Shown piece after piece: positions 8,089 to 9,198 of a stretch of DNA of 10,755 bases. Below the pieces are notes generated by a model. It saw only the letters and a list, made by a program, of their open reading frames with translations. It made no database searches and was not told the origin of the DNA. How positions within the stretch are numbered: position 1 is the first letter of the stretch; each line of letters starts with the position of its first letter. Origin of the DNA: a virus; the IMG/VR virus record IMGVR_UViG_3300029133_000269, positions 1 to 10,755 of that record. One strand, written 5' to 3'. The position numbers and the translations under genes are program-made.

Positions 8089-8439
8089 AAAGTTTCCTCC
8101 CTCTCTGGCGGCAGTCTGCCTATAATCAACCGTACCAGAGCAAGCCCCGGAGCGTCAAGGAGGGCGGTGTCTATGGGGCTGTGCCTTGACCCTCTGCGGC
8201 TTCTCTGGTGGGGCTTCTGGCGGCGGTAGTGAGGGATAGCTTGTATTATATCTGTCCGGGTCTTATGGCTCTGTATGGGGCTTGTGGGAGAGGTGGCTTC
8301 CAGAGAACAGACAGTTCTCTGGACTCTCGTGTTTAATTTTTATGGGGAGTGGACGGAAAAATTAACAGAGGTGGGATGAAATCACCCCCAACCCCTCAAG
8401 GGGTGTAAAGCTTCCTTGTGGGTGTCCAGGGTGATCTGT

Positions 8440-9198
8440 TTAATACTTTAGTTCGTAATAGGTTATTTGTTGGTTTGCCTGCGGTATGTCCACGGTTTTA
8501 ACATAGACTATTCGGTCAGCGTAGATTTTGCGAAAGTCCTCTTCATCAAGAAGAAAGTGTTCTTCCTCCGCAATGTGGCAGTTACGACTGTAATAATAGC
8601 GGCGTTTCTCTTTCAAGTGTTCGTCAACGCTTTTCGTGATGTATTTTGTAATATAACTACTCACTCTGCCAGTGTCTAAAACTTTTGTAGCGGTAGTAAA
8701 ACCGTATGACCAGTCAGTAATATTATAAATGATCTGATTTTTTTTGCGGTCAATTTTCCACGCCTTAAATGTGAGATTGTCCACGTTTGCAAGTAGTCCG
8801 TGAAAATGATAATGTTCCTTATCTTTATGTAATTCTGGAACTATGATGTATTTCATATCCGGGCACTTTCGTTTTTGTAGATTGTTGAGGAAAATTTTAA
8901 GCCGGTATAAAACTAGATCATAGTCAGATGCATCTGTTTTGGTACGGTCAAAAGTCAGAGTGATAAACCAATCCCATTTGTTAGACCTTGCAATTCTGTA
9001 AACGTTGTTTTTGGCTCTGGATGCAGAAACCGTCATTGCATGCTTTTCAGCTTCCGGGGTGCGGTCACTTATGTCATGGGTTTTGTTTAGCAAGCTGTCC
9101 TCTGGCTTTTCTTTCCCGGCGTTAATAGCATGATGATAAAATGTGATGTGTTCCCCGGTCTCATACTGGTAACGCCGACAATTATAAACTGTTTCCAT
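8440..9198 (-). CDS. rep: Rolling-circle replication initiator, 252 aa (HUH endonuclease, superfamily I, phiX174 gpA / phage CRI-like)
   Basis: Motif I FITLTF, motif II HYHFHGLL (HUH) and motif III YITKYITK (two catalytic Tyr). RBS AAGGAG 9 nt before the ATG. Confidence 0.85.
   Translation of the reverse strand: METVYNCRRYQYETGEHITFYHHAINAGKEKPEDSLLNKTHDISDRTPEAEKHAMTVSASRAKNNVYRIARSNKWDWFITLTFDRTKTDASDYDLVLYRLKIFLNNLQKRKCPDMKYIIVPELHKDKEHYHFHGLLANVDNLTFKAWKIDRKKNQIIYNITDWSYGFTTATKVLDTGRVSSYITKYITKSVDEHLKEKRRYYYSRNCHIAEEEHFLLDEEDFRKIYADRIVYVKTVDIPQANQQITYYELKY

What the first reader, a model, noticed from the sequence alone, without database searches (positions are those of the whole stretch)
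8150..8440. GC-rich structured region downstream of rep with iteron-like GGGGCT repeats and nested hairpins
Three copies of (T/G)ATGGGGCT(T)GTG lie at about 8172, 8208 and 8273, with repeated CTCTGG. A 9-bp hairpin CCAGAGAAC-AGACA-GTTCTCTGG is at 8301..8323. An outer 7-bp IR ATCACCC/GGGTGAT (8384..8390 and 8434..8440) encloses the inner hairpin ACCCCT-CA-AGGGGT. The region is compositionally unlike the AT-rich coding DNA and lies between the rep stop and the IS. It may be Rep-binding iterons or an origin, an ncRNA, or the native partner of the control region now separated by the IS30 insertion.
Basis: seen in the sequence. Interest (0 to 1): 0.55.

Follow-up and report, generated by a model that had tools for sequence, protein, structure and literature searches.

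The report
Structured intergenic region of transposing phage
The GC-rich 350-base gap between the replication gene and the transposase gene of a small gut filamentous-type phage holds two conserved folded modules: a swappable three-hairpin cassette, and a long hairpin that carries the transposase promoter. It does not hold Rep-binding repeats and is not the scar of an IS insertion.

Summary
The hairpins and the GC-rich composition are real. The "iteron" repeats are weak: two 9-mers plus a partial third, irregularly spaced, and not kept outside close relatives.

The window is a circular ~10.66 kb inovirus-like genome (Zot/pI-like gene, RCR Rep, IS30-family transposase). The "IS30" is not an insertion. 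The whole phage is the mobile unit. Integrated copies end at window 6897 and 6894, carry ~15-bp target duplications, and the transposase sits in the same place in all relatives.

The region (8089-8439, read on the minus, gene-sense strand) has two modules.
- **Module A (8292-8411):** three hairpins with strong covariation. It is 98% identical in a phage whose Rep is non-homologous and whose transposase is 43% identical, so it is an exchangeable cassette and not Rep-specific.
- **Module B (8129-8208):** a 20-30 bp hairpin in 14 lineages. Its arms covary, and its 3' arm always reads TTGAYA-N17/18-TAnnnT just upstream of the transposase start. The gene-sense strand folds better in 13 of 14 lineages.

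My best reading (confidence about 0.4) is that these are single-stranded-DNA signals. B would be an Frpo/sso-like hairpin promoter that primes complementary-strand synthesis and serves as the transposase promoter in duplex DNA. A would be a packaging or priming cassette. The main rival is an RNA-level role.

The parts
8292..8411 (-). Module A core: a three-hairpin cassette (A1, A2, A3) with conserved single-stranded linkers.
   Evidence: - Covariance model R1 matches at 150 bits here. It also finds the module in 49 sequences, including diverged lineages L136, L229, L138 (two copies), L232 and L137.
- Covariation: 95.7% of cells paired, 18 of 28 pairs changed on both sides, 0 of 500 shuffles as good.
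- 98% identical to L012.
8391..8404 (-). Hairpin A1. In gene sense it reads ACCCC-TTGA-GGGGT.
   Evidence: - The four C-G pairs are invariant apart from one U-G, so they are uninformative for covariation.
- Stem length and loop vary in diverged lineages: CCCCC-TTATGTAA-GGGGG in L138 and CCCC-TTTGA-GGGG in L137.
8374..8391 (-). Conserved unpaired motif TTGGGGGTGATTTCATCC. The family consensus is TTRGGGGTGAYTWAAT.
   Evidence: - Conserved as sequence in window, L136, L137, L135, L229 and L232.
- Its pairing partner in the window (ATCACCC at 8429-8435) is absent in L012, L136 and L137, so the 'outer IR' is not a conserved stem.
8324..8370 (-). Hairpin A2. The lower stem is CTCT/AGAG. The upper stem is TTAATTTTT/AAAAATTAA (8357-8365 with 8333-8341). 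The loop is variable.
   Evidence: - One search lists the arms (I6).
- Compensatory changes occur even among close relatives: U-A, A-U and C-G at one pair (29, 11 and 7 sequences), and U-A, G-C and C-G at another.
8299..8323 (-). Hairpin A3. In gene sense it reads TCCAGAGAAC-TGTCT-GTTCTCTGGA.
   Evidence: - One search lists the arms (I3).
- 8 of 10 pairs show changes on both sides, and 99.4% of cells are paired.
- Stem sequences in diverged lineages: CGAGGGGCA/TGCCCCCG in L136, GCGGGGGAA/TTTCCCCGC in L138, GCAAGGGAA/TTCCCTTGC in L229.
8209..8291 (-). Spacer between modules A and B. It holds two of the three AGCCCCA (GGGGCT) copies.
   Evidence: - 82-93% identical within the clade.
- Its 5' part (down to window 8239) lies within the BLAST match to L012.
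- It is not alignable in diverged lineages.
8135..8208 (-). Module B hairpin. The 5' arm is CCAGAGAAGCCGCAGAGGGTCAAGG. The 3' arm is CCTTGACGCTCCGGGGCTTGCTCTGG.
   Evidence: - Searches list the arms; searches give the folds.
- The equivalent hairpin is present in 14 lineages with unrelated stem sequences. A lineage's own arms pair at -16.9 kcal/mol, against -6.0 +/- 2.6 for arms taken from different lineages.
- The gene-sense strand is more stable than its complement in 13 of 14 lineages.
- 91-99% identical within the clade, above the flanking coding DNA.
8153..8158 (-). -35-like hexamer TTGACG at the top of the 3' arm of module B.
   Evidence: - It reads TTGAYA, TTTACA or TTGAGT at the same place in all 14 lineages.
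- The partner arm keeps GTCAAR, and reads TGTCAA in most lineages. That is the complement of TTGACA and gives a conserved G.T pair with TTGATA.
8129..8134 (-). -10-like hexamer TACGGT at the base of the module B stem, 18 nt after the -35 hexamer and 40 nt before the transposase ATG.
   Evidence: - TAnnnT lies 17-19 nt after the -35-like hexamer in 13 of 14 lineages.
- L145 has TTGAGT-18-TATCCT, read by eye.
- The match is too weak for the generic promoter scan.
8086..8101 (-). Ribosome-binding site GGGAGG and the ATG of the transposase.
   Evidence: Read directly from the sequence. The ORF is 7075-8088.
7075..8088 (-). IS30-family DDE transposase. It is the phage's own integration and transposition enzyme.
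   Evidence: - NCBIfam NF033563: 213 bits against a cut-off of 80.
- Pfam HTH_38 plus rve.
- Conserved in position in all relatives.
8440..9198 (-). Rolling-circle Rep (HUH type).
   Evidence: - Pfam PF23343 REP_ORF2-G2P, 54 bits.
- phrog_3419, 'rolling circle DNA replication initiation'.

Best explanation
The interval is the cis-acting, single-strand-active control region of a transposable inovirus-like phage of Lachnospiraceae. It is read on the gene-sense (window minus) strand, which is presumed to be the packaged strand.

**Module B (8129-8208)**
- It is a long hairpin whose 3' arm is a sigma-70-type promoter: -35 TTGACG, an 18-nt spacer, -10 TACGGT.
- In double-stranded (replicative or prophage) DNA this is a weak promoter for the transposase gene that follows.
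- In single-stranded viral DNA the hairpin rebuilds the -35 and spacer duplex and leaves the -10 at the fork. This is how Frpo/ssi elements, ssoA-type origins and the Ff minus-strand origin work.
- Host RNA polymerase would then copy the 5' flank of the hairpin. That RNA would prime complementary-strand synthesis.

**Module A (8292-8411)**
- It is an independent three-hairpin cassette.
- It does not depend on the Rep type and is exchanged between phages.
- It is most likely a second single-strand signal, either a packaging signal or a primase/PriA-type priming site.

**Shown**
- Conservation, covariation and strand bias.
- The invariant promoter geometry.
- Independence from Rep.
- Linkage of module B to the transposase.

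**Inferred**
- That the phage has a single-stranded stage of this polarity.
- That RNA polymerase recognises the hairpin.
- What module A binds.
For: **Context: a genome with a single-stranded stage**
- Circular 10.66 kb genome with a 99-nt terminal overlap.
- Zot/pI-like morphogenesis gene, RCR Rep, and small coat-like membrane ORFs.

**Module B is a hairpin selected as structure**
- 14 lineages have unrelated stem sequences.
- A lineage's own arms pair at -16.9 kcal/mol, against -6.0 +/- 2.6 for arms from different lineages.

**The folding strand is the gene-sense strand**
- It is more stable than its complement in 13 of 14 lineages with DNA parameters.
- There are 16 G.T pairs against 3 A/C mismatches.

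**Promoter geometry is invariant**
- The 3' arm always carries TTGAYA, then 17-18 nt, then TAnnnT.
- This lies 24-66 nt before the transposase ATG.
- This is the Frpo/sso arrangement: the stem rebuilds the -35/-10 boxes and the RNA serves as primer (PMC9849209, PMC4595007).

**Details that fit a single-strand role**
- The 5' arm keeps TGTCAA. A simple pairing requirement would be met as well by TATCAA. In the hairpin this puts the consensus G on the template side of -31.
- The -10 keeps only T-12, A-11 and T-7 around a GC-rich core. That suits a pre-opened fork better than a duplex promoter.

**Distribution and conservation**
- B is more conserved (91-99%) than the flanking genes (78-90%).
- B follows the transposase, not Rep. 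In L012 it sits before the transposase, while Rep is a different type located about 1 kb upstream.
- B was seen in only two (L142, L145) of the 37 upstream regions inspected from IS30-type transposase loci in other viral contigs. Most of the rest show a terminator-like hairpin and an RBS instead.

**Module A**
- Strong covariation.
- 98% identity to a phage with a non-homologous Rep and 67%-identical Zot DNA.
- Tandemly duplicated in L138.
- Replaced in the same slot by long perfect GC hairpins in L140 and L231.
- These are cassette-like properties, as known for sso elements. ICEBs1 sso1 lies just after the relaxase gene, has three stem-loops, and is shared with unrelated plasmids (PMC4595007).
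Against: - No experiment or strand-specific data shows which strand is packaged, or that a single-stranded stage exists at all.
- G.T bias and covariation fit an RNA of the same sense equally well.
- In window-type phages the -10 lies mostly outside the stem. In L135 and L137 it is inside the stem, so the fork-junction picture is not uniform.
- The -10 is weak, and the generic promoter scan does not call the site.
- There is no sequence similarity to any plasmid or phage record. The region therefore belongs to none of the described sso or Frpo sequence families.
- Module A shows no significant strand preference (7 of 10) and contains no promoter-like hairpin.
- The genome has a second structured non-coding region (3836-4482, z -5.3) that could hold the origin or packaging signal instead.
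- One relative (L233) has rep abutting the transposase gene with neither module between them.
- The plus-strand (Rep) origin was not located.
Confidence: 0.4

Rival explanations
1. The modules act as RNA. They are structured parts of the long sense transcript, as the 3' UTR of rep and the leader of the transposase gene. Module B would be a processing site (RNase III type), or a barrier that uncouples read-through transcripts from transposase translation. Module A would be a stabilising or regulatory 3'-UTR element, or a small RNA.
For: - Both modules lie in the sense orientation inside a gene array. That array can be driven by the junction promoter at 6908->6880.
- G-U-type changes and covariation fit RNA as well as single-stranded DNA.
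- With RNA parameters the sense strand of B is more stable in 12 of 14 lineages.
- In L012, module A lies between the transposase stop and a terminator-like hairpin followed by a T-run, which is the position of a 3' UTR.
- Mobile elements often block read-through expression of their transposase. This is general knowledge (for example IS10 fold-back inhibition), not tested here.
Against: - Transcripts from the conserved TTGAYA-N17-TAnnnT promoter would start after the hairpin and would not contain it.
- The hairpin does not cover the ribosome-binding site, which lies 25-60 nt downstream.
- An RNA role gives no reason for conserved -35 and -10 hexamers at fixed spacing inside the 3' arm, or for TGTCAA in the 5' arm.
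- No Rfam family matches, even at E = 10.
- None of the hairpins is followed by a U-run in the window.
Confidence: 0.3
2. Module B is an ordinary double-stranded promoter of the transposase gene, overlapped by an inverted-repeat operator for a dimeric repressor or for the transposase itself. Module A is unrelated filler or a terminator region.
For: - The promoter hexamers and their position before the transposase are conserved.
- These phages do use palindromic operator-like sites: GTTCGAACGTTCGAAC occurs at 6807-6822, 7057-7072 and 3913-3928. In relatives it sits between module B and the transposase RBS.
Against: - Apart from GTCAAR and TTGAYA, the arms of B are not conserved in sequence between lineages. 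Only their complementarity is conserved. A protein operator would keep its sequence, as the GTTCGAAC palindrome does.
- The strand asymmetry has no meaning for duplex DNA: 13 of 14 lineages, and 16 G.T against 3 A/C.
- Module A shows strong covariation, so it is not filler.
Confidence: 0.12
3. This is the first reader's idea: the region is the Rep-specific double-strand origin, with GGGGCT iterons bound by Rep and a nick site in one of the hairpins.
For: - The region lies directly after rep in all relatives with this Rep type except L233, where rep abuts the transposase gene.
- TGGGGCT occurs three times within 110 nt and nowhere else in the window.
- The top of module B reads YTTGATA in most lineages. 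That resembles the CTTG/ATA nick-site consensus of pC194- and phiX174-type Reps. This resemblance is recalled from memory and was not tested.
- The plus-strand origin must lie somewhere, and it was not found elsewhere.
Against: - Module A is 94-98% identical in L012-type phages, whose Rep is a non-homologous Viral_Rep plus SF3-helicase protein.
- Module B also occurs there, before the transposase and away from Rep.
- The GGGGCT copies are short, irregularly spaced (35 and 67 nt), mutated in L014 and L012, and absent from diverged lineages.
- The longer repeat consensus is at chance level.
- The window itself has CTTGACG rather than TTGATA.
Confidence: 0.1
4. The region belongs to an IS30 insertion sequence, as its left end and leader, that inserted next to rep.
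For: The adjacent gene is a bona fide IS30-family transposase.
Against: - No inverted-repeat pair flanks the transposase gene. The best candidates are 72-75% matches at chance level.
- The gene order rep, region, transposase is kept in all relatives down to 50% transposase identity.
- All integrated copies end at window 6897 and 6894, so the mobile unit is the whole phage.
Confidence: 0.02

Closest known systems
Frpo/ssi single-stranded DNA promoters of conjugative plasmids (F Frpo1/2, ColIb-P9 ssi)
   Same: - A non-coding stretch whose single-stranded form folds into a long stem-loop.
- The stem-loop rebuilds -35 and -10 boxes for host RNA polymerase.
- The RNA can serve as transcript or as primer (PMC9849209, PMC11541004).
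- The geometry matches module B: -35 near the loop and -10 near the base, on the 3' arm.
   Different: - No sequence similarity to any plasmid record.
- The host is a phage of Clostridia, not an enterobacterial plasmid.
- The -10 is only TAnnnT and lies partly outside the stem.
- Here the same hexamers also face a gene (the transposase) in duplex DNA. The element would therefore point in opposite directions in the two DNA forms.
- Function is untested.
Single-strand origins of rolling-circle plasmids and ICEs (ssoA, ssoT/pBAA1 type, ssoU; ICEBs1 sso1)
   Same: - Structured, orientation-specific non-coding cassettes that prime lagging-strand synthesis.
- Independent of the Rep type.
- Shared almost unchanged between unrelated replicons.
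- ICEBs1 sso1 lies just downstream of the relaxase gene and has three stem-loops (PMC4595007). Module A has three stem-loops just downstream of rep and is 98% identical in a phage with an unrelated Rep.
   Different: - No detectable sequence relationship to plasmid records.
- The defining RSB and CS-6 motifs were not looked for, because no reference sequences were at hand.
- Module A has no promoter-like hairpin.
Intergenic region of Ff filamentous phages (packaging-signal hairpin A, minus-strand origin hairpins B and C, plus-strand origin D and E)
   Same: - One main non-coding region next to the replication gene.
- It is made of several hairpins that act in the packaged strand.
- Host RNA polymerase uses promoter-like hairpins to prime the complementary strand. 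This is established knowledge of Ff phages.
   Different: - Here the region lies after rep and before a transposase gene.
- The modules can be separated (L012 has the order B, transposase, A).
- A second structured non-coding region exists at 3836-4482.
- No plus-strand origin was identified.
IS30-family elements and their circle or (IS30)2 junctions
   Same: - The neighbouring gene is an IS30-family transposase.
- The circular form has the two ends abutted with a 2-nt spacer. The junction forms a perfect TTGACA-17-TATAAT promoter, as described for IS30, IS911 and IS21 junctions (the comparison is from general knowledge).
   Different: - The transposon is a 10.6 kb phage, not a 1.2 kb IS.
- Target duplications are about 15 bp instead of 2-3 bp.
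- The region under study is internal and is not an IS end.

Membership tests
Iterons / Rep-specific double-strand origin | Three or more direct repeats of about 17-22 bp, regularly spaced and above chance. | tested here: not met
   - Only a 7-mer is shared three times, at spacings of 35 and 67 nt.
- The 13-mer consensus is at chance level: 4 found, 3.5 expected.
Iterons / Rep-specific double-strand origin | The element co-occurs and co-varies with its Rep. | tested here: not met
   - Module A is 94-98% identical in L012-type phages with a non-homologous Rep.
- Module B follows the transposase in L012.
Iterons / Rep-specific double-strand origin | Rep binds and nicks the fragment. | not testable with these tools
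   This needs purified Rep. No solved relative of the Rep exists to guide prediction.
Separate IS30-family insertion sequence | The transposase belongs to the IS30 family. | tested here: met
   NF033563 scores 213 bits against a cut-off of 80. Pfam HTH_38 plus rve.
Separate IS30-family insertion sequence | A 1-1.3 kb unit bounded by terminal inverted repeats, present or absent independently of its surroundings. | tested here: not met
   - No credible inverted-repeat pair flanks 7075-8088.
- The gene is fixed in position in all relatives.
- The ends of the mobile unit are at 6894 and 6897, 10.6 kb apart.
Separate IS30-family insertion sequence | Target duplication of 2-3 bp. | tested here: not met
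   Duplications of 14-17 bp (mostly 15 bp) in 14 independent insertions.
Frpo/ssi-type single-stranded DNA promoter | The single-stranded form folds into a stem-loop that rebuilds the -35 and -10 boxes. | tested here: inconclusive
   - The -35 and the 17-18-nt spacer are inside the stem in all 14 lineages.
- The -10 (TAnnnT) lies at or just beyond the stem base in most lineages and is paired in L135 and L137.
Frpo/ssi-type single-stranded DNA promoter | Sequence homology to known Frpo/ssi elements. | tested here: not met
   A blastn search of 8089-8439 (word size 11) against 72,556 plasmid records found no match.
Frpo/ssi-type single-stranded DNA promoter | RNA polymerase starts RNA on the single-stranded form only. 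| not testable with these tools
   This needs in vitro transcription on single-stranded templates.
Single-strand origin (sso) of rolling-circle replicons | Non-coding, extensively structured, with the structure conserved by covariation. | tested here: met
   Module A. Module B. Folding z-scores.
Single-strand origin (sso) of rolling-circle replicons | Orientation or strand specificity. | tested here: inconclusive
   - B: the sense strand is favoured in 13 of 14 lineages and by 16 G.T against 3 A/C.
- A: 7 of 10, not significant.
- Functional orientation dependence cannot be tested here.
Single-strand origin (sso) of rolling-circle replicons | Membership of a described type (ssoA, ssoT, ssoU, ssoW) by sequence motifs such as RSB and CS-6. 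| not tested
   No reference sequences were compared directly. The indirect result is that no blastn match exists to any PLSDB plasmid.
Any described RNA family (Rfam 15) | A covariance-model match at the gathering score. | tested here: not met
   - No hit in the window at gathering thresholds.
- Only sub-threshold eukaryotic miRNA and snoRNA noise at E up to 10.

The most novel reading that the evidence does not exclude
Module B is a DNA-form-dependent, two-way promoter.
- On the incoming single-stranded phage genome, the hairpin recruits RNA polymerase and fires 'backwards' to prime the complementary strand.
- Once the genome is duplex, the same hexamers fire 'forwards' at low level into the IS30-type transposase gene.
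- Replication start and integration would thus be wired to one element.

Module A would be a new class of exchangeable single-strand signal (an sso or a packaging signal) for filamentous-type phages of Clostridia. Together they would define the cis-acting core of a large, undescribed family of transposing inovirus-like phages of the human gut.
Probability: 0.25. Interest if true: 0.7.

Novelty: new variant of a known kind. Interest (0 to 1): 0.5.

Why it matters
- **A gap in knowledge.** To my knowledge (not searched here), the cis-acting signals of filamentous-type phages of Gram-positive gut bacteria are largely undescribed: origins, packaging signals and early promoters.
- **What this region offers.** It provides two well-delimited, covariation-supported candidates.
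- **Module B.** A promoter built into a hairpin of the packaged strand would extend the Frpo/sso principle from plasmids to a phage. It would also link it to expression of a transposase.
- **Module A.** It shows that such signals travel as cassettes between phages with unrelated replication proteins.
- **Annotation.** The analysis corrects a likely recurring mistake. In these contigs 'IS30' is not an insertion but the phage's own integration enzyme. The region next to it belongs to the phage.

Tried and rejected
- **Rfam.** Nothing at gathering thresholds or at E up to 10.
- **tRNA/tmRNA scan.** None.
- **Public records.** blastn against phage records (6800-8600) and plasmid records (8089-8439) found no match.
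- **IS ends.** A search for inverted repeats that would bound an IS around the transposase gave only 72-75% chance-level pairs.
- **Viral scan for more module A copies.** The degenerate motif GAGGGGTTRGGGGTGAY returned only chance hits in coding DNA of unrelated phages.
- **Genome and metagenome scans.** About half of the hits to the 21-mer were chance matches in GC-rich genomes. They were filtered out by blastn.
- **Alignment.** MAFFT misplaced the stems of the diverged module A copies. It was replaced by a covariance-model alignment.
- **Reverse-strand model hits.** Hits around hairpin A3 come from its near-palindromic stem. They were excluded by the E-value cut.
- **Rep structure.** A PDB sequence search for the Rep, meant to infer a nick site, found nothing.
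- **Rep nick site.** Comparison of the first 30-60 nt after rep in several lineages gave no convincing shared motif.
- **Guide RNA idea.** A bridge-RNA-like partner of the transposase is rejected as unlikely. Insertion sites are unrelated to each other. The variable C-rich loop of A2 has no complementarity to the AT-rich element ends.
- **SD/anti-SD pairing.** The SD-like GGGGGTGAT and anti-SD-like CACCTCT inside module A were considered as a translational switch. No start codon follows, and the CCTCT segment is already used in the covarying A2 stem.
- **Intrinsic terminator.** This role is rejected for A1, A3 and B in the window, because no T-run follows any of them.
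Full report
**1. What the window is**

The window carries a 99-nt terminal overlap, so it is a circular genome of about 10.66 kb. Every ORF with a database match lies on the minus strand:
- a Zot/pI-like morphogenesis protein at 9567-10478 (phrog hits; its L012 homologue hits Pfam Zot);
- an HUH rolling-circle Rep at 8440-9198 (PF23343; phrog_3419);
- an IS30-family transposase at 7075-8088 (NF033563, 213 bits);
- small membrane ORFs of coat-protein type and a 656-aa ORF.

This is an inovirus-like (filamentous-type) phage. 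Close relatives are common in human-gut metagenomes and in IMG/VR. Two copies lie in Lachnospiraceae-type MAGs, L033/L034 and L135 (Acetatifactor).

**2. The 'IS30' is the phage's own enzyme**

In five complete or near-complete relatives the order rep, region, transposase is the same. The same order holds in lineages whose transposase is only 50-66% identical (L135-L138, L140). One relative, L233, has rep abutting the transposase gene with neither module between.

No inverted repeat bounds the transposase gene.

Integrated copies in long bacterial contigs all end at window 6897 (TGTAAATGTCAATAAG...) and 6894 (...ATAATTTTCA). Fourteen independent insertions lie at unrelated sites and carry duplications of 14-17 bp, mostly 15 bp.

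Circular forms (window, L087, L136) have the two ends abutted with a 2-nt spacer. The junction creates a perfect TTGACA-17-TATAAT promoter that points into the gene array.

The mobile element is therefore the whole phage, and the region under study is internal to it. This disposes of the idea that an IS insertion split a control region.

**3. The observation**

The interval 8089-8439 is non-coding and GC-rich (0.59 at its peak). It folds better than shuffled sequence on both strands (z -3.3 to -4.5).

The outer repeat is 3-5 nt away from the stated coordinates.

The 'iteron-like' repeats are weak:
- There are two TATGGGGCT 9-mers and one GTGGGGCTT.
- The 7-mer TGGGGCT occurs three times, against 0.76 expected in the window.
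- The longer consensus is at chance level.
- The spacing is irregular.
- The copies are mutated in L014 and L012 and absent in diverged lineages.

**4. Anatomy on the gene-sense strand**

Comparison with diverged relatives splits the region into two modules.

*Module A (8292-8411)* has three hairpins joined by conserved unpaired motifs:
- A1 is CCCC-loop-GGGG.
- The motif TTRGGGGTGAYTWAAT follows.
- A2 has a lower stem CCTYTG/CAGAGG, an AT-rich upper stem and a variable loop.
- A3 is a GC stem with a short loop.

A covariance model built from close relatives finds the module in L136, L229, L138 (two tandem copies), L232 and L137, with E from 9e-18 to 2e-4. It finds no credible match (only one weak hit, E = 0.74) in 28 searched loci of other phage types with IS30-like transposases.

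On the 49-sequence alignment:
- 95.7% of cells are paired.
- 18 of 28 pairs show changes on both sides.
- No shuffle out of 500 reaches the observed values.
- Sliding the partners drops the covariation score from 0.189 to 0.072 or less.

The alignment is fitted to the model, which favours the structure. However, compensatory changes are visible by eye even among close relatives. One example is TTAATTTTT/AAAAATTAA, TAAATTTTT/AAAAATTTA and TCAATTTT/AAAATTGA.

The window's outer stem (ATCACCC/GGGTGAT) is not kept in L012, L136 or L137.

*Module B (8129-8208)* is a long imperfect hairpin. In 14 lineages the stem sequences are unrelated, but each lineage's 5' arm pairs best with its own 3' arm. The mean is -16.9 kcal/mol, against -6.0 +/- 2.6 across lineages.

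Only three things are conserved in sequence:
- GTCAAR (mostly TGTCAA) at the top of the 5' arm.
- TTGAYA at the top of the 3' arm.
- TAnnnT 17-18 nt further on, at the base of the stem, 24-66 nt before the transposase ATG.

The 3' arm is therefore a sigma-70-type promoter facing the transposase gene. In the window this reads TTGACG (8158-8153), an 18-nt spacer and TACGGT (8134-8129).

The gene-sense strand folds better than its complement in 13 of 14 lineages with DNA parameters. Non-Watson-Crick positions are G.T 16 times and A/C 3 times.

Within the clade, B is 91-99% identical while rep and the transposase gene are 78-90% identical.

**5. What the modules depend on**

L012-type phages have a Zot-like gene 67% identical at the DNA level, a transposase 43% identical at the protein level, and a Rep of a different kind (Viral_Rep plus SF3 helicase, no similarity).

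Even so, the module A core is 98% identical. There it lies after the transposase gene, not before it.

A module-B-type hairpin lies directly before the L012 transposase gene, about 1 kb away from Rep.

Three conclusions follow:
- A is an exchangeable cassette that does not depend on the Rep type.
- B goes with the transposase gene.
- Neither behaves as a Rep-specific iteron array.

In L140 and L231 the slot after rep holds long perfect GC hairpins instead of module A. In L138 module A is tandemly duplicated.

**6. Mechanism**

The strongest clue is a promoter whose -35-to--10 stretch is always the 3' arm of a covarying hairpin on one particular strand.

This is the design of single-stranded DNA promoters and RNA-polymerase-dependent single-strand origins. 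The folded strand rebuilds the promoter, and the RNA made serves as transcript or primer (Frpo: PMC9849209, PMC11541004; sso: PMC4595007; the Ff minus-strand origin is from general knowledge).

With the -35 near the loop and the -10 at the base of the 3' arm, polymerase on the single strand would use the 5' arm and then the 5' flank as template. The RNA would be complementary to the viral strand. That is what a primer for complementary-strand synthesis must be.

In duplex DNA the same hexamers point the other way, into the transposase gene. The -10 keeps only T, A and the final T around a GC-rich core. That is poor for duplex opening but adequate at a pre-opened fork.

The conserved G.T pair (TGTCAA opposite TTGATA) puts a G on the template side of position -31 only in the hairpin. 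As I recall from sigma region 4 structures, this is a contacted base. That point comes from memory and is untested.

I therefore read B as an Frpo/sso-like minus-strand origin that doubles as a weak transposase promoter. I read A as a second single-strand signal (a packaging signal, or a primase/PriA-type site). Its cassette behaviour and three stem-loops recall ssoT/ICEBs1 sso1 and G4-type origins.

Confidence is about 0.4, for these reasons:
- The polarity of the packaged strand is assumed from other inoviruses.
- The same data fit an RNA of the same sense.
- Module A has no strand preference.
- A second structured non-coding region (3836-4482, z -5.3) could carry origin or packaging functions.
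- The Rep nick site was not found.

**7. Rivals**

- *RNA role (0.3).* The modules are structured parts of the long sense transcript, acting in processing or protection or as a 3' UTR. The main argument against is that transcripts from the conserved promoter would not contain the hairpin. The hairpin also does not cover the RBS.
- *Duplex promoter plus operator (0.12).* Arm sequences are not conserved, and the strand asymmetry has no meaning in duplex DNA.
- *Rep origin with iterons (0.1).* See section 5. The YTTGATA at the top of B resembles the CTTG/ATA nick consensus of pC194/phiX-type Reps, so a nick site inside B is not excluded.
- *IS end (0.02).* See section 2.

**8. Comparison with the known, and novelty**

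The region matches no Rfam family and no phage or plasmid record. It works like known single-strand promoters and origins, but it is not a member of any described sequence family.

The particular arrangement would be a new variant of a known kind. It would have one promoter serving two directions according to the DNA form, next to an IS30-type transposase in a phage.

The literature held here notes that plectroviruses use IS3/IS30 transposases (PMC6668415). It also describes, without explaining, a particle-packaged element with IS30, an inovirus gp2-family protein and 15-bp direct repeats (bioRxiv 10.64898/2026.07.08.737213). The transposing-phage context is therefore only partly known.

**9. 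Verdict**

This is a real, conserved, bipartite structured element. The iteron and IS-scar readings are wrong, and the origin-type reading is plausible but unproven.

Interest is 0.5. The element is solid and testable, and it would be of value for understanding Gram-positive filamentous-type phages. It remains within known principles.

Noticed in passing
window 6894/6897 (element ends); loci L013, L016, L039, L060, L063, L076, L091, L092, L095, L106, L113-L115, L118, L132: The whole ~10.6 kb inovirus-like genome transposes. Integrated copies end exactly at 6897 (TGTAAATGTCAATAAG...) and 6894 (...ATAATTTTCA). They lie at unrelated sites with target duplications of 14-17 bp, mostly 15 bp, which is far longer than the 2-3 bp typical of IS30. 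The 16-17-nt 'terminal repeats' of IMG/VR contigs L013 and L016 are these duplications, not signs of circularity.
   Followed up: partly
window 6880-6908, minus strand: A perfect TTGACA-17-TATAAT promoter straddles the circle junction. Its -35 lies in the transposase-side end and its -10 in the other end, with a 2-nt spacer (TA in the window, CG in L087, GG in L136). It exists only in the circular form and points into the whole minus-strand gene array. Integration would switch it off.
   Followed up: partly
window 6807-6822, 7057-7072 and 3913-3928; also L138, L140, L142, L231, L232 between module B and the transposase RBS: The 16-bp palindrome GTTCGAACGTTCGAAC (or close variants) recurs before gene starts, like an operator for an unidentified phage repressor. 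Contig L017 breaks at this repeat and lacks the ~234 nt between the two copies next to the element ends. This is probably an assembly effect.
   Followed up: no
window 3836-4482, minus strand: A second large, apparently non-coding, C-rich region lies between an SSB-like/membrane ORF block and the coat-like ORF. It is strongly structured (z -5.3) and includes the hairpin GTCCCCTTG-GGAGGGGG-CAAGGGGAC. It may hold the plus-strand origin or the packaging signal. Part of it (GGGAGGGGTTCGGAATGGTAC) resembles the sequence that follows module A in L012.
   Followed up: partly
L012 2756-3793 (also L077, L117): A phage with a Zot-like morphogenesis gene and an IS30-type transposase carries a CRESS-DNA-virus-like Rep (Viral_Rep plus SF3 RNA_helicase) in place of the PF23343 Rep. 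This is a replication-module swap within an otherwise related genome.
   Followed up: partly
L138 5522-5856; L033 1-278: Module A is tandemly duplicated in L138, with two full copies about 180 nt apart. It is partly duplicated at the start of a Lachnospiraceae MAG contig (L033). The prophage there is split between two contigs at this element.
   Followed up: no
window 4322-4646: This stretch does not align with several otherwise 85-93% identical relatives (L015, L016, L042). It is a hypervariable segment inside or next to the dubious ORF 4186-4464.
   Followed up: no
window 8414-8440, plus strand: A terminator-like hairpin CCTTGTGGGTGTCCAGGG followed by TGATCTGTTT lies on the strand opposite to the genes. 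It sits at the place where an antisense RNA started from module B on single-stranded DNA would arrive. It may be chance.
   Followed up: no
L233 1082-2787: In one Acetatifactor MAG relative (transposase 54% identical) rep is followed within 32 nt by the transposase gene. Only an operator-like palindrome and an RBS lie between them, with neither module A nor module B. The contig is too short to see whether the modules lie elsewhere.
   Followed up: no
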